In this document: piece after piece, positions 5,474 to 43,973 of the stretch | Layout of the letters: every line of letters starts with the position of its first letter | Position numbering within the stretch: position 1 is the stretch's first letter | Sequence record: MZ956763.1 | Length of the DNA: 64,000 nucleotides | DNA from: a phage | Reading direction: 5' to 3' (one strand) | The notes under the pieces: model-generated | What the model was told of the DNA's origin: nothing | Seen by the model: the letters and a program-made list of their open reading frames with translations, nothing else | Database searches by the model: none | Translations under genes and position numbers: made by a program

Positions 5474-7840
5474 ATGCGCATGGTAAACGACCACGCAGAA
5501 GTGATTAAGAGTTCAACTTCTTTAGAGACGTCTCAAGCACAGATTACAATGACACCTGAAATGTTCAGCCTTTTGAGTTCAGGTGTATACACATTCAAAG
5601 AAAGGGCAGTGATTCGTGAACTGTCATGTAACGCAGTAGATGCTCAAAAAGAAGCTGGAAAAGAGAACATCCCATTCCATGTGCATTTACCTACTCGTTT
5701 TGAGCCTTACTTTGAAGTTCGTGATTTTGGAACTGGTTTAACCCATGACAAAGTAATGAGTTTGTATCTGAACTACGGGGCTTCTACGAAGAATGACTCT
5801 AATGATTACATTGGTGCAATGGGTATCGGCTCAAAATCCCCATTTGCAATTGCTCAGTCATTCACAGTATCTAGCTATGTTGATGGTGTTGCTAATAAGT
5901 ACTCTGTTTACCTTGAGAATGGTATCCCTCAAGTAACTAAGCTTACTACCAACCAAACAAATGAACCCAATGGTTTAGCTGTACGTGTAGCAGTTGCTGA
6001 CCATCGTATTTCAAAGTTCTTTGAAGAGGCTGGTCACGTATACTCATACTTTGCTGTAAAACCAGAAAGTAACATTGTATATGATGATGTATTAGCAGAT
6101 ATGAATGTCATTGCCCGTGAAGAGGGTGTTTATGATGCTATGATTCATAAGCAAAGCTGGCGTTCTAGTGGCAACAGGACAGAGTTTAATGTGGTGATGG
6201 GTAATATTGCCTACCCAGTGAACATGGAAGCATTACTTGGTGATGATTTCTTCAAAGTCTTGCCAGAGTTTTTCCGTAGGAGCGTAGACCTTGTAAACAT
6301 CTACATGCCTATTGGTTCAGTGGCTATTGCAGCTTCTCGTGAAGCATTGCAGATGAATGACACGACAAAAAATGTTATCATTGAGGCTACTAAAAAGATA
6401 ACTGAAGCCATTACAAAGGATGTTATCAAGAAAGTTAATAGCCAACCTACACTCATGGATGCTGCACAGGCTTATGCTGAGTTACGTTTGAACTCACGAG
6501 AGATGTTTAATGCTGTGTGTCCAAAGCTAGAGTGGGGAGGCGTTAAGCTTGATTCTCTGGAAGAAGAATTACTAAATATTCGTCGTGGAATTATCTACGC
6601 AGAAGACGGCTCAGTCATTTATGAACGTGACGGTAAAGGTAATATTAAGGTTGATAGGAACGGGAACAATATCCCTAAAGTAGATTATCTTTATGACCCA
6701 GTTGCTTATGTCAAGTTCAACTCTTTAGAGAGTAAGATTCGTGCAACATCGCTTTCCTACACTCAAGAGGCAAGTATGTTCAATATCTTTGGCGCAATGC
6801 GTAAAAGCCAAATTGAACAGTTTTTGTTTGTTATCAATGACCGTCGCAATAAAAATGGTACTGAGAAGACTGTAGGACGCAATCAAATCTTGCGTGGTGC
6901 ATGTCGAGACTATGCCAGTGAGTCAAATCTGTTTCACAGATACAACGGTATTGTCTTTGTATTCTCTACTGAGAAAGAGTTAGACGACTTAATCAATCTG
7001 CACAAACTTGATAAAAGCTTGTTAAAGATTGTGAAGATGTCTGATAAGGAACACCATTATCAGCGTAAAGAAGCTGTAAGAGGTGTTGTAAAACTCTGGA
7101 AAGCTGTTCCAGCAGAAGGTGTAGCTTCATACACAGAGGTGTCAGAAGACTTAGACACAATTGAAGAGCCTCAACTTTATATCAAGGCAGTAGGTGATAC
7201 TGTTGATGGTGAATGTTTTTGCTCATCTCCAGATGATGTAGCTAAGTCAGTTGCCAATGTCATTGGAAAGACAGTCTATGTTTTCCGAAAAGCAAATTGG
7301 AAAAAGATACCAGAAGACTGGATTGAAGTAGATGAGAAGCTCTTGAACGACAGCTTAACTGATGTTCACTGGATTAACCATAACAGATATATGACACGTA
7401 TCTACATGAATGGTGTCCTTGACCTCACAAGCAGTTGGATTATTGCCAGAAACTTTACGTTCAATAACAAGAAGATTTCTCGTGGCTATTGCTATTCACG
7501 AGACACAAACAAAACTATCTTCTTAGAAGGTAATGAAGATGCTGTTGATGCAATGTTTGGTAAAATCCAATACGTTGCTGCACCGTTTGCATACACTTAC
7601 ACTATTAGCGTGTTGCAAGATTTGAAAAGTTGTCTTGATAATGATACAAAGCTTTACAAGAAAATTAAGAAAGCTGGTGACCGCATGGTCATTAAGGTGA
7701 CAAACTACCTTTCAAAAAGAAAACAAGAAAACTTCTTGCTTTCTCATTTAGATTGGAATAAAGTGTCACCCATCGAAGTGAGTAAGTTCTTAGGCTTTGA
7801 TGTGAAGTGTGTTCCAGAAGGGACTACAATTTACGATTAA
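5474..7840 (+). CDS. rIIA: rIIA-like protein with N-terminal GHKL (HATPase_c) ATPase domain
   Basis: 788 aa; Bergerat-fold motifs ELSCNAVDA (ExxxNxxDA), DFGTG, GAMGIGSKS near N-terminus; size/architecture like T4 rIIA. Confidence 0.5.
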   Translation: MRMVNDHAEVIKSSTSLETSQAQITMTPEMFSLLSSGVYTFKERAVIRELSCNAVDAQKEAGKENIPFHVHLPTRFEPYFEVRDFGTGLTHDKVMSLYLNYGASTKNDSNDYIGAMGIGSKSPFAIAQSFTVSSYVDGVANKYSVYLENGIPQVTKLTTNQTNEPNGLAVRVAVADHRISKFFEEAGHVYSYFAVKPESNIVYDDVLADMNVIAREEGVYDAMIHKQSWRSSGNRTEFNVVMGNIAYPVNMEALLGDDFFKVLPEFFRRSVDLVNIYMPIGSVAIAASREALQMNDTTKNVIIEATKKITEAITKDVIKKVNSQPTLMDAAQAYAELRLNSREMFNAVCPKLEWGGVKLDSLEEELLNIRRGIIYAEDGSVIYERDGKGNIKVDRNGNNIPKVDYLYDPVAYVKFNSLESKIRATSLSYTQEASMFNIFGAMRKSQIEQFLFVINDRRNKNGTEKTVGRNQILRGACRDYASESNLFHRYNGIVFVFSTEKELDDLINLHKLDKSLLKIVKMSDKEHHYQRKEAVRGVVKLWKAVPAEGVASYTEVSEDLDTIEEPQLYIKAVGDTVDGECFCSSPDDVAKSVANVIGKTVYVFRKANWKKIPEDWIEVDEKLLNDSLTDVHWINHNRYMTRIYMNGVLDLTSSWIIARNFTFNNKKISRGYCYSRDTNKTIFLEGNEDAVDAMFGKIQYVAAPFAYTYTISVLQDLKSCLDNDTKLYKKIKKAGDRMVIKVTNYLSKRKQENFLLSHLDWNKVSPIEVSKFLGFDVKCVPEGTTIYD

Positions 7841-29178: not shown

Positions 29179-30594
29179 ATGAGCGAGTTATTTAAACATG
29201 CGCACCTTCATGCAGGTCGAACTGAAAATGGTGCTGTAAACCATACTTCATCAATGTCTGCTCTGGTAGACTTCTACAAAGCTGCTGGTTCAAGCCGTAG
29301 CAATGTAGAAATCTTACCAGACCTGTTCTACAAAGCTTTGCATGAGGATGTTGATGTTGCAGTTCGTATTTTACTGCATATGCGAGATGTACGAGAAGGT
29401 ATGGGTGAGCGTAAAGCCTTCAGGACTGTTTTGCTTCAAGCAATTGAAGATAAAGTTTTAGAGTCTACACAGGTTCTTCGCATTATGGATAAGATTGCAG
29501 AACTTGGTCGTTTTGATGACTTCAAAATCTTCGTAGGTACTCGCTTCGAGACAGATGCCTTCAAACATTTAGAAGCAGCATTACTAGACCCTGCAACAGC
29601 AGGTTTGGCAGCTAAGTGGTTGCCACGAGTCAAACCACGTCACAAACAGTTTGTAAAACGTTTCTGCAAGTTTGCCAACTTGAGTGAGAAAGAGTACCGC
29701 ACACTGTTGTCTGCACTATCTGATACAGTTGAGCAAAAAATCTCTGCTAATGAGTTTGGCAAGATTGACTACAGCAAGATTCCTTCACTTGCTGCTGCAC
29801 GTTACCAAAAACTGTTTAACCGTAAAGATGGAGAACGCTACAAAGCTTACATTGAGTCTTTATCAAAAGGTGAGACTAAGATTAACGCTGGTGCTGTTTA
29901 CCCATACGATGTGATTAAATCTGTCAAGCATGGTAATGCAGATGTTGCTAATGAGCAGTGGAAAGCACTACCAAACTGGATGGCAGAAGGTGAAAACATC
30001 TTGTGTATGACTGATGTTTCAAGCTCAATGTCTTGGGTGAATTTTGGCTCCATTACTGCTCTGGATATTGGTGTATCACTTGCATTGTATGTGGCAGAAC
30101 GCAATACAGGTTGCTTTAAGAATGAGTTGATGGTTTATTCAACAAACCCTCACTTCATCGAACTTAGTGGTGATTTACGAAACCGCCATCGTCAGGTGAT
30201 GCGACATGTTGAATATGGTTCAACTAACTTACAAGCAGCTTTTGACCGTATTCTTGAGACAGGTAAAAGAAACAACTTGACTCAGAAAGATATGCCAAGT
30301 AAGCTTATCATCTTCTCCGATATGGAGTTCAATCAGGTTGATGGAGCTAACGGTCGTACAAACTTTGAAGCAATTCAGAGTAAGTACAAGAAAGCTGGAT
30401 ACGAAATGCCACAACTGGTATTCTGGTACTTAGCAAACCGTAATGGTACTTGCGAAGTGTCTGTTAAGGATAACGGTGTAGCAATGGTATCTGGTTTCTC
30501 TCCAGCCACTTTAAAAGCTCTGCTTGGTGGTGAGAAGTTTGACCCAATCAGCGTAATGCTCAAAGCAGTAATGATTGACCGCTATATCTGGTAA
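29179..30594 (+). CDS. vWA-domain protein, candidate Ro60/TROVE-like (Rsr-like) RNA-binding protein
   Basis: 471 aa; MIDAS-like DxSxS (MTDVSSSMS) with downstream T and D (IIFSDMEF); ~270-aa helical N-terminal region; placed immediately upstream of tRNA/structured-RNA cluster. Confidence 0.5.
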   Translation: MSELFKHAHLHAGRTENGAVNHTSSMSALVDFYKAAGSSRSNVEILPDLFYKALHEDVDVAVRILLHMRDVREGMGERKAFRTVLLQAIEDKVLESTQVLRIMDKIAELGRFDDFKIFVGTRFETDAFKHLEAALLDPATAGLAAKWLPRVKPRHKQFVKRFCKFANLSEKEYRTLLSALSDTVEQKISANEFGKIDYSKIPSLAAARYQKLFNRKDGERYKAYIESLSKGETKINAGAVYPYDVIKSVKHGNADVANEQWKALPNWMAEGENILCMTDVSSSMSWVNFGSITALDIGVSLALYVAERNTGCFKNELMVYSTNPHFIELSGDLRNRHRQVMRHVEYGSTNLQAAFDRILETGKRNNLTQKDMPSKLIIFSDMEFNQVDGANGRTNFEAIQSKYKKAGYEMPQLVFWYLANRNGTCEVSVKDNGVAMVSGFSPATLKALLGGEKFDPISVMLKAVMIDRYIW

Positions 30595-30613
30595 AAAGTT
30601 TTAAAAAGGGTAT

Positions 30614-30926: not shown

Positions 30927-31003
30927 GACAGAAGACCAATTACAGCAAACTTAATCTTATTCATCTGAAGGTAAATCGGACAAAGAAGAGATTTGGTCTG
31001 GTC
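30927..31003 (+). ncRNA. structured element A (conserved ACAGAAGACC...GGTCTGG terminal stem)
   Basis: 5' GACAGAAGACCAATTACAGCAA, 3' ATTTGGTCTGGTC; family members at 31095, 31576, 31663. Confidence 0.45.
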
Positions 31004-31013
31004 ATTAAGAATT

Positions 31014-31094: not shown

Positions 31095-31160
31095 ACAGAA
31101 GACCGTTTACAGCAATATTTATTAAATTTTTAGCGGAAAAATTGAAAGATACGGTCTGGT
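31095..31160 (+). ncRNA. structured element B (ACAGAAGACCG...CGGTCTGG stem)
   Basis: same terminal stem motif and TTACAGCAA box as element A. Confidence 0.45.
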
Positions 31161-31172
31161 AATACTAAACAT

Positions 31173-31575: not shown

Positions 31576-31651
31576 GCAGAAGACCAAATACAGCAAGTTA
31601 CTTAAAATTTCAAGCCAATTTAATTTTGAAAAATTTAAAACTTGGTCTGGC
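31576..31651 (+). ncRNA. structured element C (GCAGAAGACCAAATACAGCAA...TTGGTCTGG)
   Basis: same terminal stem motif family. Confidence 0.45.
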
Positions 31652-31662
31652 TCAACAAATTT

Positions 31663-31794
31663 ACAGAAGACCGTTTACAGCAAAACTTAAACAATCTATT
31701 TCTCGGTAAAGAAAAGGAGAAGGTTCGATTCCTTCACTCGGCAGATGTCGAGTTGGTGTAATGGTAGCACTTAAGATGGTAAACAACGGTCTGG
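31663..31794 (+). ncRNA. structured element D with internal permuted tRNA-like domain (candidate YrlA-like Y RNA)
   Basis: terminal stem ACAGAAGACCGTTT/AAACAACGGTCTGG; internal order T-arm (GAAGG-TTCGATT-CCTTC), acceptor 3' strand ACTCGGC, loop AGAT, acceptor 5' strand GTCGAGT, D-arm GTGTAATGGTAGCAC. Confidence 0.5.
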
Positions 31795-31938
31795 TAATTA
31801 TCTTTGTAGATAAGTTATTAAGCTTACCTGTGAGTATGCGACCACAAAGGGTGAAAGGGTAAATTCTAGATTTAAACCCAAAAAGGCACATCGCTACAGA
31901 CCTTAAGCAAGTCTGGGTAGCTTATCTACAAAGATAAT
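31795..31938 (+). repeat. 19-bp perfect inverted repeat flanking a 106-nt segment
   Basis: AATTATCTTTGTAGATAAG at 31795-31813 and exact reverse complement CTTATCTACAAAGATAATT at 31920-31938. Confidence 0.85.
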
Positions 31939-31943
31939 TTAAT

Positions 31944-32019
31944 GGAAGTGTAGCAGAATGGTGATGCGGCAGACTTTTAATCTGACAGGCGATGGGTTCG
32001 AATCCCTCCACTTCTACCA
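31944..32019 (+). tRNA. tRNA-Lys (anticodon TTT)
   Basis: acceptor GGAAGTG/CACTTCT, anticodon arm GCAGA-CTTTTAA-TCTGA, T-loop TTCGAAT; T-stem weak by eye. Confidence 0.65.
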
Positions 32020-32192: not shown

Positions 32193-32221
32193 TTGACATT
32201 GAGATGTGACTACTTTATAGT
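32193..32221 (+). promoter_or_regulatory. sigma70-like promoter TTGACA-17-TATAGT inside tRNA cluster
   Basis: consensus -35, good -10; followed by ~290 nt without tRNA. Confidence 0.55.
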
Positions 32222-32514
32222 AACTAAAATACTTCACAATATGTATAATTCAAACACCAATACATGAGCGTTAGACGTAACACAATGTGGGGAAATTTGT
32301 TGTACATATTCTGAATAGTTTTCGTTGCGTAGCGTCTATTTTGCAAATTTAAAATAAATGCAAACGACAATGTTTTTCTGGCAGTAGCTTGATAGGCTAA
32401 ACACCAGTGAGGTCTTCCAATCCCTCATCAAAGAATTTGGCGTACTCGCCCACGGTATGATTAATAAGGTGGGCATCTTTAAGGGCTTTCTAAGAGAGTC
32501 TTTAAAGATAATTA

Positions 32515-32596
32515 CGGGGCGTATCTCAGCGGTCTTCTAAACCGCCGTTAACCGAGTAAGTGGAGTATGCGGGTTCGAGTCCTGCCGCCTCGACCA
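32515..32596 (+). tRNA. atypical tRNA-like gene, possible tRNA-Arg (anticodon TCT)
   Basis: acceptor CGGGGCG/CGCCTCG + A + CCA, T-arm GCGGG-TTCGAGT-CCTGC, arm GCGGT-CTTCTAA-ACCGC; no canonical D-arm found by eye, 23-nt segment before T-arm. Confidence 0.45.
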
Positions 32597-32923: not shown

Positions 32924-33180
32924 CCTAATAAGATTTAAAGCCAAGCTTCATTCGGATGTCGCTTTGGTATCCCGCGTGTATTGTCGTACACACTGATAAA
33001 ACACCTAGTAGGTGTCACGGAGAAGAGATAATATCAAGCTCTCCAAAGGTTCTAGTCACCGGATTAAACAAGACTATGCAAAGACCTTTTTAGGTCTTTT
33101 TAGAGGGCTTCTAAGGTTATTACAGCTTGTTGTGGAACCTTGTTGCTTAGGTTCTTAGAAGTTCTCTAAAAAGATTTAAT

Positions 33181-33855: not shown

Positions 33856-34413
33856 ATGAGATATTTGAAGTATGCTTCATGGATTTTCCTAGCTTTACTA
33901 GAGCCATTTGCAGCAACCCTATCAGTCATCTTAGCACCTTTCGTAGTTCCATTCTACAGTGAGAAGAAAGGACACCTACCTTTTGGATTCAGATGGATGG
34001 AGACCTATGACAACCCAATTGATGGTGATGAAGGTCACGTTAAAAGATGGGCTAAGATTAGAAAGATTGGTAAGCTGGGTGTCTACATGCAGAGAGTTGG
34101 ATGGCTCTGGAGAAACAAAGCTTATAACTTCTCTTACCATGTATTAGGAAGAGATGTAAAAGATGTTACTAAGTGGAAAGGTAATATCAACGTAAGTTCT
34201 GACCCTGAAGATAATCAGACAGGTTATCTCCTAATGTGGAACAACAATGCTTGGGGATTATTCGCTTTTATTCCGTCAATTAAAATCTTTGGTAAACAGT
34301 TTTACTGGAGAATTTATGTTGGATGGAAACTAAAAAGTGTTGTCCCAGAAGAAAGAGCATTCTCAAGGGAAAGAGTTATGTTGGCATTCTTTATTCATCC
34401 ACTGAGAAAGTAA
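33856..34413 (+). CDS. hypothetical membrane-associated protein encoded inside tRNA cluster
   Basis: ORF 185 aa, hydrophobic N-terminus (WIFLALLEPFAATLSVILAPFVVPF), Trp/Lys-rich. Confidence 0.45.
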   Translation: MRYLKYASWIFLALLEPFAATLSVILAPFVVPFYSEKKGHLPFGFRWMETYDNPIDGDEGHVKRWAKIRKIGKLGVYMQRVGWLWRNKAYNFSYHVLGRDVKDVTKWKGNINVSSDPEDNQTGYLLMWNNNAWGLFAFIPSIKIFGKQFYWRIYVGWKLKSVVPEERAFSRERVMLAFFIHPLRK

Positions 34414-34772: not shown

Positions 34773-34849
34773 AGTCCAAGTAGCTTATATGGTTAAAGCG
34801 CGTGTCTGAAAAACATGAGAAGAGGGTTCAAATCCCACTGGACTACCAA
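34773..34849 (+). tRNA. tRNA-Phe (anticodon GAA)
   Basis: acceptor TAGTCCA/TGGACTA, anticodon arm CGTGT-CTGAAAA-ACATG, T-loop TTCAAAT; 3' CCA not fully encoded. Confidence 0.7.
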
Positions 34850-34864
34850 TTTCAAAGGTGCTTA

Positions 34865-35599
34865 ATGAAAGAGATGACAGAACAAGGTAAGGAGATTTTT
34901 AATCTCTTAAAAACCGGTAAAGGGTTTTCTAACCCACTTATTACTGGTGCAGCAGTTCTCGGTGGAACCGTAGCTGCCTCTACATCACTTGTAAGCTCTA
35001 TTAGCTCTGTAACAGACCCTACAATGAATGAGAAACTTGTTGCTGCTGGACTTACAACAGTCCTTCTAAACAGCTTTACAACAAGCCTGACAAGCACTAC
35101 AGCAACTACTAAGACCCTAACAGACTATGGTCAAAAGTCTATTGATGAGTTTTCATCACGTATGCAGGTAGCAAAGGGATACTCCAATGTTATGGGTGCA
35201 GCAGGAGAACAAGTTGGTTGTACACCGTTCAGTGGTATTATGGGTGTTGCTACAGAATATGGTCAAAAAGCTATTGATACGATTAACAGTACACTAGAGA
35301 GTGTTAACGATGTATTAAGTGACTTACAAGACGCTATTGACAAGGGTCTTGATACTGTTTCTGATTTAGCTAACCAAGCTGTCAGTAAGATTAATGAAGG
35401 TATCTCAAAGATTACAGCTTATGCAGATGAAGTTGTGCAGATGATTGAAGAAGAAGCTGCCCTTATTGCAGAGTACCTTAAAACGAATATCAATGGGTTC
35501 TTAGCAGGTATCTTACCAGACTGGTTTGATGATGCTTGTAAAACTGGTGTGATTGACACTATTGCAACACCAGAAATGAAGAACGCATTACAGAAATAA
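34865..35599 (+). CDS. hypothetical Ser/Thr/Ala-rich protein (between tRNA-Phe and tRNA-Ser)
   Basis: start moved to ATG 34865 (MKEMTEQG..) because ORF-track start lies inside tRNA-Phe; 244 aa. Confidence 0.5.
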   Translation: MKEMTEQGKEIFNLLKTGKGFSNPLITGAAVLGGTVAASTSLVSSISSVTDPTMNEKLVAAGLTTVLLNSFTTSLTSTTATTKTLTDYGQKSIDEFSSRMQVAKGYSNVMGAAGEQVGCTPFSGIMGVATEYGQKAIDTINSTLESVNDVLSDLQDAIDKGLDTVSDLANQAVSKINEGISKITAYADEVVQMIEEEAALIAEYLKTNINGFLAGILPDWFDDACKTGVIDTIATPEMKNALQK

Positions 35600-43491: not shown

Positions 43492-43973
43492 TGGTTAAAA
43501 GGGTTATTCACCCCGCTAGAGCAAAATTAGTCGGGGCTATGAAGAACTTGCAAACGGCTAATGCTCAAGTTGGGTATTTTCAAGAACAAGGTCAACATAG
43601 CTCTGGTTTTTCTTATCCTGCTTTAATGTATTTACAAGAAGTTATTGGGGTTCCTTCAGCTTCTGGTAAAGTATATCGTAGGTTGTTTGAAATCACGATG
43701 ATGCTAAACAAACAGGCCTTGTTAGAGCAGACTAAGAAGAATCTATATAAGCAACTTAGCAGTCTCAACACAGACCCTTCAGATACCTTAGAAGCATTTG
43801 CAAAGAATGCTCAAAAGGCAATTAAAAGAGGTTTTGGTAATTCTGCTATCCTCCCTCCTAACGCACCTTCCACAGTCAAGAAAAAAGGCTTTAACGCACC
43901 TCTTGTTGAGACAGGTGACTTAAGAGATAACCTTGCTTATAAAATTTCTACTAAGAAGGGTATTAAGAAATGA
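43491..43973 (+). CDS. hypothetical head/neck protein
   Basis: ORF 160 aa. Confidence 0.45.
   Translation: MVKRVIHPARAKLVGAMKNLQTANAQVGYFQEQGQHSSGFSYPALMYLQEVIGVPSASGKVYRRLFEITMMLNKQALLEQTKKNLYKQLSSLNTDPSDTLEAFAKNAQKAIKRGFGNSAILPPNAPSTVKKKGFNAPLVETGDLRDNLAYKISTKKGIKK

What the first reader, a model, noticed from the sequence alone, without database searches (positions are those of the whole stretch)
31795..31938. 19-bp perfect inverted repeat enclosing 106 nt between element D and tRNA-Lys
AATTATCTTTGTAGATAAG (31795-31813) and its exact reverse complement (31920-31938) flank a segment with internal hairpins (for example CAGACCTTAAGCAAGTCTG). A perfect 19-bp stem is unusual for a spacer: it could be a stable stem-loop RNA (RNase III substrate or second type of structured sRNA) or a miniature inverted-repeat insertion in the tRNA array.
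Basis: seen in the sequence. Interest (0 to 1): 0.55.

Follow-up and report, generated by a model that had tools for sequence, protein, structure and literature searches.

The report
Conserved pseudoknotted RNA in phage tRNA operon
The inverted repeat is the 24-base-pair closing helix of a roughly 144-nt structured non-coding RNA, not found in Rfam 15, that Felix O1-like phages keep just upstream of tRNA-Lys, next to a Ro60-like gene and Y-RNA-like elements; it is not a transposon remnant.

Summary
The repeat is real but one base off: the perfect 19-nt arms are 31796-31814 and 31921-31939. It extends to a 24-bp helix, 31796-31819 with 31916-31939. It is the only perfect inverted repeat of 14 nt or more with a spacer up to 300 nt in the 64-kb window.

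The window is a Felixounavirus. The same element ("E") sits immediately 5' of tRNA-Lys(UUU) in four sequence lineages: Felix type, Moogle/Susp type, metagenome contig L079 and Yersinia phage P778.

All four keep:
- a 23-24-bp closing helix (15 of 22 pairs changed on both sides; G.U pairs only on the + strand);
- a 3' hairpin stacked on that helix;
- a 5-bp pseudoknot (GCUWA with UWAGC) whose middle pair covaries.

E matches no Rfam family, has no conserved ORF, no second copy in the window, and no copy in 5,426 E. coli genomes, so a MITE is rejected.

Two E types are only 57% identical, yet they replace each other exactly at the helix ends in otherwise near-identical phages.

Best reading: a discrete structured RNA cut out of the tRNA/Y-like RNA precursor. 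RNase III cutting the helix and RNase P cutting at tRNA-Lys are inferred. Function and any protein partner are unknown; the neighbouring Ro60-like protein is only a candidate.

The parts
31796..31819 (+).
   Evidence: The helix is 23-24 bp in all four lineages. 15 of 22 modelled pairs changed on both sides and 99.7% of cells are paired.
31822..31826 (+). Pseudoknot 5' strand, GCUUA, in the junction 2 nt after P1; pairs with UAAGC at 31904-31908 in the P4 loop
   Evidence: 5-bp complementarity in 28 of 30 distinct sequences and 4 bp in the other 2. The middle pair is U-A in the Felix and L079 types and A-U in the Moogle/Susp and P778 types. Chance of any 5-bp match is about 3% per lineage. The pseudoknot-compatible fold costs only 3 kcal/mol.
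31830..31845 (+). P2, tentative small hairpin (GUG / CAC closing the loop AGUAUGCGAC)
   Evidence: By eye from the sequences: GUG/CAC in the Felix type becomes GGGG/CCCC in L079. It is weakly supported in the model-fitted alignment (helix 2, 78% paired).
31838..31841 (+). GCGA, tentative pairing with UCGC at 31891-31894. It would either close the central domain or form a second pseudoknot.
   Evidence: By eye: GCGA/UCGC (Felix), GCGG/CCGC (L079), and a helix at the same place 2-6 nt before P4 in the Moogle type (GAGU/ACUC) and P778 (GUGAC/GUCAC). Not formally tested.
31857..31879 (+). P3 apical hairpin (GGGU..ACCC plus AAAUU/GAUUU) with CUAG at the apex (31866-31869)
   Evidence: helix 4: 93.5% paired, 3 pairs changed on both sides. 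UUCUAGAU is identical in the Felix and Moogle/Susp types, UACUAGUA in L079, and absent in P778.
31891..31894 (+). UCGC, the tentative partner of GCGA at 31838-31841
   Evidence: See the GCGA entry; read by eye.
31897..31915 (+). P4 hairpin: CAGAC / GUCUG with the 9-nt loop CUUAAGCAA (31902-31910). It abuts the P1 3' strand with no unpaired base. Loop bases 31904-31908 form the pseudoknot.
   Evidence: helix 5: 4 of 6 pairs changed on both sides; CAGAC/GUCUG, CAGUC/GACUG, CAAACC/GGUUUG, AAAGUC/GACUUU. The loop C(C)UU(A/U)AGCAA is the most conserved sequence across the four lineages.
31916..31939 (+).
31940..31943 (+). UAAU linker between P1 and the first base of tRNA-Lys(UUU) (31944-32019). RNase P cleavage at the tRNA 5' end would make this the 3' tail of E.
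   Evidence: Position. The RNase P step is inferred from the standard pathway of tRNA 5' maturation.
31660..31795 (+). Context: element D, a Y-RNA-like element with a tRNA-like module. Its closing helix ends 3 nt before P1 of E.
   Evidence: D, E and tRNA-Lys are packed as closely as tRNAs in a cluster.
29179..30594 (+). Context: 471-aa DUF2828/DUF7788 protein, called 'Ro-like RNA-binding protein' in related phage records, on the same strand 1.2 kb upstream
   Evidence: PMC11482910 reports the Bas63 homologue gp130 as structurally Ro60-like. There is no sequence hit to solved Ro60 structures.
33090..33179 (+). Context: a second conserved long helix (about 27 bp) that ends AAAAAGAUUUAAU just before tRNA-Leu(UAG). 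Its outer stem and AU-rich tail resemble those of E.
   Evidence: covaries between the Felix and Susp types.

Best explanation
E (31796-31939, + strand) is a gene for a discrete structured non-coding RNA of about 144 nt. It is conserved in Felix O1-like phages (Felixounavirus, Mooglevirus, Suspvirus and two more distant relatives).

Shown:
- A 23-24-bp helix formed by the 5' and 3' ends closes a four-helix core.
- The 3' hairpin P4 stacks directly on that helix.
- The 9-nt P4 loop pairs with the junction just after the helix, giving a 5-bp pseudoknot.

Inferred:
- E is co-transcribed with tRNAs and Y-RNA-like elements, from a promoter downstream of the Ro60-like gene.
- It is released from the precursor by RNase P cutting 4 nt downstream, at the 5' end of tRNA-Lys.
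- It is probably also cut by RNase III within the long helix. That cut would separate element D from tRNA-Lys.
- The compact pseudoknotted core then acts as a protein-binding RNA. The partner is unknown; the neighbouring Ro60-like protein or a host factor are candidates.

My probabilities: functional + strand RNA structure about 0.9; the helix is a processing or end-protection helix about 0.5-0.6; any specific partner 0.2 or less.
For: Structure:
- Independent register analysis gives 23-24 bp with 0-1 mismatch in every lineage. The P778 arm has almost no sequence in common with the window.
- On the model-fitted alignment 92% of cells are paired, against 82% in shuffles and 44% or less when the 3' partners are slid. 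33 pairs changed on both sides, and 0 of 500 shuffles reach the observed values.

Strand:
- There are 3-4 G.U pairs per helix on the + strand. They would be C.A mismatches on the - strand or in DNA.
- Two of the three P1 substitutions among the distinct Felix-type sequences make wobble pairs.

Pseudoknot:
- GCUWA pairs with UWAGC, and the middle pair covaries. The pseudoknot-compatible fold is nearly as stable as the minimum-energy fold.

Position and conservation:
- E is always immediately 5' of tRNA-Lys(UUU).
- The Felix type is in 190 phage records and the Moogle/Susp type in 60. That equals the 250 records whose Ro-like gene is at least 80% identical.
- Within a type E is as conserved as the tRNAs: 98.6% and 93.7%.

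Transcription unit:
- Sigma-70-like promoters lie at 30613 and 30704, and the next one at 32193.
- No terminator-like site lies on the + strand in between.

Related features:
- Other long helices, 33090-33179 and 32475-32509, also end a few nt before the first tRNA of a subcluster, with the same AAAGAU + AU-rich tail.

Precedent:
- The T4 tRNA transcript is also the precursor of two stable RNAs, species I and II (PMC2330249).
Against: - No RNA-level data were found, so transcription, the RNA ends and RNase III cleavage are all inferred.
- The covariation rests on four lineages, so on few independent events, and alignment A5 was fitted to the model.
- The P2/P3a part of the core is not resolved. 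The Felix-type cells break many of the pairs modelled from the Moogle type (helices 2 and 3).
- A perfect 24-bp helix might be destroyed rather than matured by RNase III.
- E is absent from distant phages that carry the same protein family and Y-like elements, so it is not a general partner of the Ro-like protein.
- One natural deletion (L023) removes E and tRNA-Lys, so E is dispensable at least there.
Confidence: 0.6

Rival explanations
1. E is only a processing or insulating spacer. The long helix, like those at 33090-33179 and 32475-32509, exists to present an RNase III or RNase E/P site and to keep upstream RNA from interfering with folding of the next tRNA. The enclosed 100 nt would have no function of their own.
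For: Three helices in the same operon share the outer stem AUCUUU../..AAAGAU and an AU-rich tail just before a tRNA. The interior of E diverges strongly between types, 57.5% identity.
Against: The interior keeps a specific architecture across four lineages: P4 with a near-invariant loop, a covarying pseudoknot and the P3 hairpin. Within each type it is as conserved as the tRNAs. The other two helices enclose only simple loops.
Confidence: 0.2
2. E is a further Y-type RNA: a specific ligand of the phage Ro60-like protein encoded 1.2 kb upstream. It would work with elements A-D in an RNP that modulates host RNA decay or counters a defence system.
For: E shares a strand, and by inference an operon, with the Ro-like gene and four Y-like elements. 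It has the generic Y RNA layout of a long stem formed by the two ends plus an inner module (PMC4201824). The P4 loop ends in AGCAA, like the WWACAGCAA motif of elements A-D. E is absent from the phiEa104 locus, which has no Ro-like gene beside its tRNA array. The Bas63 homologue gp130 counters the Ppl defence system (PMC11482910).
Against: There is no bulged helix or CGAA motif, no T-arm module, and no Rfam Y_RNA or YrlA hit. The C that is invariant in CAGCAA is replaced by A or U in E. The AGCAA loop is already explained by the pseudoknot. Distant phages with the same protein family and the ACAGCAA elements have no E.
Confidence: 0.15
3. E is a new kind of self-cleaving ribozyme that helps cut the D-E-tRNA-Lys precursor.
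For: It has a compact pseudoknotted multi-helix core with short, strongly conserved single-stranded motifs. It sits exactly where two cuts are needed.
Against: It matches no known ribozyme family even at permissive thresholds. Very few bases are invariant outside the helices across the four lineages. Host RNase P, E and III suffice for tRNA cluster processing.
Confidence: 0.03
4. E is a miniature inverted-repeat transposable element, or its remnant, inserted into the tRNA array.
For: It has terminal inverted repeats, and the unit is exchanged exactly at the repeat ends between phages.
Against: It is single-copy in the window and absent from 5,426 E. coli genomes. I see no target-site duplication in the flanks read. 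The arms change by compensatory substitutions and include G.U pairs. It occupies the same position in lineages whose Ro-like proteins are only 53-63% identical. No empty site was seen. The exchange is explained by recombination in the conserved outer helix and flanks.
Confidence: 0.01
5. The repeat acts in DNA, as a protein-binding palindrome, cruciform, origin or packaging signal, or as an RNA from the - strand.
For: The arms are perfect in the window, and the - strand also folds well (-44.8 kcal/mol).
Against: In the other lineages, and in Felix-type variants, the helix is kept by G.U wobbles. These would be mismatches in DNA or on the - strand. All neighbouring genes are on the + strand.
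Confidence: 0.03

Closest known systems
Phage T4 species I and species II stable RNAs (tRNA gene cluster)
   Same: They are stable non-coding RNAs of unknown function, encoded among phage tRNA genes and made from the same primary transcript as the tRNAs (PMC2330249). From memory, not checked here: species I RNA is cleaved by E. coli RNase III (Paddock, Abelson, Robertson and colleagues, 1970s).
   Different: I did not compare the sequences, so homology is neither shown nor tested. E has a 23-24-bp closing helix and a pseudoknotted four-helix core, and it lies in a Ro60-like/Y-like RNA context that T4 lacks.
Y RNAs of Ro60 (bacterial YrlA/YrlB; phage phiLo Yrl1/Yrl2)
   Same: They are small RNAs of about 80-130 nt encoded next to a Ro60-type gene, with a long stem formed by the 5' and 3' ends and an inner module (PMC4201824, PMC12135203).
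   Different: E has no bulged Ro-binding helix or CGAA motif, no tRNA-like T/D module and no Rfam hit. Its stem is almost perfect and much longer. The neighbouring elements A-D, not E, look like the cognate Y-type RNAs.
RNase III processing stems (helices flanking 16S/23S rRNA; T7 early-region sites)
   Same: They are helices of about two turns or more, formed by sequences flanking an RNA in a polycistronic precursor (established knowledge). The E helix is 23-24 bp in every lineage and lies between mature RNAs.
   Different: Cleavage is untested. The enclosed RNA is a small pseudoknotted domain of unknown role rather than an rRNA.
Miniature inverted-repeat transposable elements
   Same: Terminal inverted repeats around a short non-coding segment.
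   Different: No multiple copies, no target-site duplication, no empty sites, and covarying arms with wobble pairs.

Membership tests
Y RNA (Ro60-associated) | Encoded next to a Ro60 orthologue | tested here: met
   E lies 1.2 kb downstream of a DUF2828/DUF7788 gene on the same strand. Homologues are annotated 'Ro-like RNA binding protein', and the Bas63 homologue is reported as structurally Ro60-like. There is no sequence hit to solved Ro60 structures.
Y RNA (Ro60-associated) | Stem formed by the 5' and 3' ends that carries the conserved bulged Ro60-binding helix (CGAA-type motif) | tested here: not met
   A long end-to-end stem exists, but it is perfect or near perfect, with no conserved bulge and no CGAA.
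Y RNA (Ro60-associated) | Match to the Rfam Y_RNA/YrlA models, or a tRNA-like module (T arm) | tested here: not met
   No such hit at E-values up to 10. There is no GGUUCGAnUCC-type T arm inside E.
Y RNA (Ro60-associated) | Binds the Ro60 protein | not testable with these tools
   Needs RIP/CLIP or a gel-shift assay.
Local Y-like elements A-D (ACAGCAA elements) | A 7-8-bp terminal helix with WWACAGCAA directly after its 5' strand | tested here: not met
   After P1 comes AAGCUUAC, not ACAGCAA. The P4 loop has UAAGCAA or UUAGCAA and lacks the invariant C.
MITE | Several copies in the host or element genomes | tested here: not met
   One copy in the window and none in 5,426 E. coli genomes.
MITE | Target-site duplication and empty sites in relatives | tested here: not met
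   The flanks are GGU and UAAU, with no direct repeat. About 250 related records carry an E. The one deletion seen (L023) is a T-arm to T-arm recombination that also removes tRNA-Lys.
MITE | Terminal repeat sequence conserved as the transposase binding site | tested here: not met
   The arms covary: 15 of 22 pairs changed on both sides, and the P778 arms are essentially unrelated in sequence.
RNase III processing helix | Double-stranded RNA of about two helical turns (20 bp or more) | tested here: met
   24, 23, 23 and 24 bp in the four lineages, with 0-1 mismatch.
RNase III processing helix | Lies in a polycistronic precursor between mature RNAs | tested here: inconclusive
   The position between D and tRNA-Lys, and the promoter/terminator scan, fit one transcript. 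That scan is consensus matching only, and its number of promoter-like sites equals the shuffle expectation.
RNase III processing helix | Cleaved by RNase III | not testable with these tools
   Needs an in vitro cleavage assay or end mapping in rnc+ versus rnc- hosts.
Known Rfam families, including self-cleaving ribozymes and riboswitches | Covariance-model match | tested here: not met
   There are no hits on E in the window or in P778 at permissive thresholds.
Intrinsic terminator | GC-rich hairpin followed by a U tract | tested here: not met
   E is not called by the scan. The helix is AU-rich and is followed by UAAU and then a tRNA.

The most novel reading that the evidence does not exclude
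E is the RNA component of an unrecognised phage ribonucleoprotein system: a pseudoknotted RNA that works with the Ro60-like protein and its ACAGCAA-type Y-like RNAs (or with a host factor) in an arms race with host defence. On this reading, that arms race is why two deeply divergent but structurally equivalent E alleles are swapped as exact cassettes among near-identical phages. A still more remote possibility is a new class of self-cleaving ribozyme.
Probability: 0.12. Interest if true: 0.8.

Novelty: new variant of a known kind. Interest (0 to 1): 0.55.

Why it matters
Felix O1-like phages are widely used for typing, biocontrol and therapy, yet the spacers in their tRNA region go largely unannotated or carry spurious small ORFs.

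This work shows that one spacer is a conserved, pseudoknotted RNA gene with clear covariation. It is absent from Rfam 15 and from the papers I could search. It sits in an operon with a Ro60-like protein whose Bas63 homologue counters the Ppl defence system (PMC11482910), and with Y-like RNAs that also have no Rfam match.

This gives a concrete, testable RNA partner set for phage Ro60-type proteins. It also gives a second example, after T4 species I and II, of stable RNAs hidden in phage tRNA clusters.

The exact cassette swap between two E types only 57% identical is a small natural experiment on structure-preserving RNA evolution.

Tried and rejected
- **Rfam.** Three searches, two at permissive E-values, gave nothing on E or D.
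- **Coding potential.** Only 25-76-aa ORFs overlap E. The 33-aa ORF starting at 31761 stops after 10 codons in the Moogle type, by my reading.
- **MITE.** Rejected.
- **Terminator.** Rejected.
- **Wider distribution.**
  - An IMG/VR scan with a P3+P4 pattern found only contigs carrying a Felix- or Moogle/Susp-type E.
  - Covariance models R1 and R2 found no E near DUF2828 genes of distant phages (Vibrio phi-Grn1, Aeromonas LAh_6, Cronobacter S13 and several metagenome contigs), nor in Erwinia phage phiEa104.
  - The R2 hit at 43604-43747 lies inside a 160-aa ORF and is taken as chance.
- **Link to solved Ro60 structures.** Sequence and profile searches of the PDB found no link for the upstream protein.
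- **Literature.** Searches for Felix O1 transcriptomics or DUF2828 in phages found no RNA-level data.
- **P4 as a Ro-binding site.** I considered that P4 is a miniature copy of the A-D binding site (shared AGCAA). I down-weighted this because the invariant C is missing and the pseudoknot already explains the loop.
- **P4 as a tRNA-Lys mimic.** In the Felix type the P4 stem CAGA/UCUG matches the tRNA-Lys anticodon stem. The match does not hold in P778.
- **P2/P3a core.** I could not settle its fold. The minimum-energy folds differ between lineages.

Full report
**Observation.**
The 19-nt sequence AATTATCTTTGTAGATAAG and its exact reverse complement are present at 31796-31814 and 31921-31939. 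With wobble pairs the helix extends to 24 bp, 31796-31819 with 31916-31939.

It is the only perfect inverted repeat of 14 nt or more with a spacer up to 300 nt in the 64-kb window, apart from a short palindrome. Shuffles give 0.06 matches against the 2 observed. The + strand RNA folds at -48.3 kcal/mol, with z between -5.6 and -7.2.

**Setting.**
- The window is a Felixounavirus (Felix O1-like myovirus). ARAGORN finds 24 tRNA genes on the + strand between 30760 and 35773.
- Just upstream, at 29179-30594, lies a 471-aa DUF2828/DUF7788 protein.
- Its homologues occur in 710 phage records and are annotated 'Ro-like RNA binding protein' in mycobacteriophages.
- The Bas63 homologue gp130 is reported to resemble Ro60 structurally and to counter the Ppl defence system (PMC11482910).
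- I could not link the protein to solved Ro60 structures by sequence.
- Between the tRNAs lie four repeated elements, A-D. Each has a 7-8-bp terminal helix and the motif WWACAGCAA.
- D also holds a tRNA-like module. E starts 3 nt after D's closing helix and ends 4 nt before tRNA-Lys(UUU).
- Sigma-70-like promoters lie at 30613 and 30704, and the next at 32193. No + strand terminator-like site lies between.
- This fits one precursor carrying Pro-Glu-A-Met-B-Asn-Tyr-Asp-C-D-E-Lys-Met-Ile. The scan is consensus matching only.

**Comparative evidence.**
E exists in four sequence lineages, always immediately 5' of tRNA-Lys(UUU):
- the Felix type, in 190 phage records at 90% identity or more;
- the Moogle/Susp type, in 60 records;
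- metagenome contig L079, whose Ro-like protein is 63% identical to the window's;
- Yersinia phage P778, whose Ro-like protein is 53% identical.

The sum, 190 + 60 = 250, equals the number of phage records whose Ro-like gene is at least 80% identical.

*Closing helix.* An independent register search gives 24, 23, 23 and 24 bp with 0-1 mismatch. The P778 arms share almost no sequence with the window.

*Covariation counts.* On the model-fitted alignment, helix 1 has 22 pairs. Of its cells 99.7% are paired, and 15 pairs changed on both sides. Overall 92% of cells pair, against 82% in shuffles and 44% or less when partners are slid. None of 500 shuffles reaches the observed values. That alignment leans towards the model, so I rely for P1.

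*Strand.* Each helix holds 3-4 G.U pairs on the + strand. Of the three substitutions in P1 among the distinct Felix-type sequences, two make wobble pairs. This points to an RNA read from the tRNA strand, and not to a DNA palindrome or a - strand RNA.

**Architecture.**
All lineages share five features:
- P1, the closing helix;
- a short junction;
- a small 5' hairpin region (P2, poorly resolved);
- a longer central hairpin (P3), with CUAG at the apex in three of the four lineages;
- a 5-6-bp hairpin (P4) with the 9-nt loop C(C)UU(A/U)AGCAA, which abuts the P1 3' strand with no unpaired base.

The two best-conserved single-stranded motifs are complementary. GCUWA sits 0-4 nt after P1 and pairs with UWAGC in the P4 loop. 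This holds over 5 bp in 28 of 30 distinct sequences and over 4 bp in the other two. The middle pair is U-A in the Felix and L079 types and A-U in the Moogle/Susp and P778 types. The chance of any such 5-bp match is about 3% per lineage. A fold that leaves these bases free costs only about 3 kcal/mol before the pseudoknot is counted.

So E is a compact pseudoknotted RNA rather than a bare stem-loop.

**What it is not.**
- No Rfam 15 family matches E, D or the P778 copy, even at permissive thresholds.
- No ORF is conserved.
- There is no second copy in the window and none in 5,426 E. coli genomes. I see no target-site duplication in the flanks read.
- It is not terminator-like.
- Models R1 and R2 find no E beside DUF2828 genes of distant phages, nor in Erwinia phage phiEa104. 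The phiEa104 locus has no Ro-like gene beside its tRNA array and no ACAGCAA elements.
- E is therefore a lineage-restricted addition to the Ro-like/Y-like/tRNA operon and not a universal partner of that protein family.

**Polymorphism.**
- Within a type, E is as conserved as the tRNAs: 98.6% in the Felix type and 93.7% in the Moogle/Susp type.
- Between types it is only 57.5% identical, while the adjacent tRNA-Lys is 96.9% identical.
- Contigs L089 and L069 have Ro-like proteins 98-99% identical to the window's but carry the second E type.
- In the three-way alignment, L089 follows the window through D up to GGTCTGGTAAT. It switches to the other type exactly at the start of P1 and returns to identity at ATTTAAT before tRNA-Lys.
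- So the unit of exchange is E itself. The likely route is recombination in the conserved outer helix and flanks.
- One IMG/VR genome (L023) has lost the 3' half of D, all of E and the 5' part of tRNA-Lys, by recombination between the two T arms.
- These are allelic replacement and deletion, not transposon insertion.

**Mechanism.**
Shown: a conserved + strand RNA structure with a 23-24-bp terminal helix and a pseudoknotted core, at a fixed position between D and tRNA-Lys.

Inferred:
- E is co-transcribed with the tRNAs.
- RNase P cutting at the tRNA-Lys 5' end leaves E with a 4-nt 3' tail.
- The long helix is either cut by RNase III, which would separate D, E and tRNA-Lys, or protects both ends of a stable RNA.

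Two observations favour a processing or end-defining role for the helix:
- Its length is kept at about two turns despite sequence turnover.
- Two other conserved helices, 33090-33179 (which covaries) and 32475-32509, end in the same AAAGAU + AU-rich tail just before the first tRNA of a subcluster.

The conserved core argues that the excised RNA has a function of its own, most simply as a protein ligand. The Ro-like protein is the obvious candidate, but the Y RNA features tested are not met.

**Comparison and verdict.**
The closest known things are these:
- the T4 species I and II RNAs, which are made from the tRNA cluster transcript (PMC2330249); RNase III cleavage of species I is from my memory and unchecked;
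- Y RNAs, which share the context and general layout, though the defining motifs are absent from E;
- RNase III processing stems.

E is an RNA family not found in Rfam 15, of a known general kind. Function remains open.

Noticed in passing
window 30928-31005, 31095-31165, 31576-31652, 31663-31795; also L037/L039/L040 about 5674-5900, L082 2547-2830, L083 about 960, L007 2348-3090: Elements A-D share one design: a 7-8-bp terminal helix (AGACCnn/nnGGTCT, flanked by CAGA..GG) with WWACAGCAA directly after the 5' strand. The same 'helix + (U)WACAGCAA' design, with different helix sequences, lies beside DUF2828 Ro-like genes only 30-46% identical. It is absent from the phiEa104 locus, which has no such gene beside its tRNA array. 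They look like the cognate Y-type RNAs of this protein family, and they have no Rfam match.
   Followed up: partly
window 31700-31790 (inside element D); L023 8480-8545: D carries a tRNA-like module, with the T arm GGTTCGATTCC and acceptor- and D-like stems, much as in YrlA. In L023 the T arm of D has recombined with the T arm of tRNA-Lys, deleting the rest of D, all of E and the 5' part of tRNA-Lys.
   Followed up: partly
window 32515-32596: At the position of tRNA-Arg(UCU) there is an aberrant tRNA-like gene. Compared with the normal 77-nt tRNA-Arg of Sf14, L023 and P778 it has no D arm and an extra 18-nt arm. ARAGORN does not call it, and Rfam gives only a weak tmRNA tRNA-like-domain hit.
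   Followed up: partly
window 33090-33179 and 32475-32509: Two more conserved long helices, about 27 bp and about 16 bp, end 5-6 nt before tRNA-Leu(UAG) and the Arg-like tRNA. They share the outer stem AUCUUU../..AAAGAU and AU-rich tail of E. The first covaries between the Felix and Susp types.
   Followed up: partly
window 32193-32330: A near-consensus sigma-70-like promoter (TTGACA, 17-nt spacer, TATAGT) at 32193-32221 is followed at once by a 105-nt imperfect hairpin at 32222-32326. That is a possible start of a second transcription unit inside the tRNA region.
   Followed up: no
window 31897-31915 against 31970-31984: In the Felix type the P4 stem of E, CAGA(C)/(G)UCUG, equals the anticodon stem of the neighbouring tRNA-Lys (CAGA/UCUG), and both loops begin CUU. 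The resemblance does not hold in P778, so it may be chance or a trace of common origin.
   Followed up: no
window 31866-31869; L079: The apex of P3 carries a palindromic CUAG core: UUCUAGAU in the Felix and Moogle/Susp types and UACUAGUA in L079, but nothing similar in P778. It could be a kissing-loop or protein-recognition site.
   Followed up: no
window 33856-34413 and 34802-35599: Two protein-sized ORFs (185 aa and 265 aa, + strand) are embedded in the tRNA array. I did not examine them.
   Followed up: no
L007 3180-3700 (Yersinia phage P778): Upstream of the P778 copy of E lie two further stretches with T-arm motifs (GGGTTCGATTCCC) and weak tmRNA-like Rfam hits. They are not called as tRNAs and may be further tRNA-like non-coding RNAs.
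   Followed up: no
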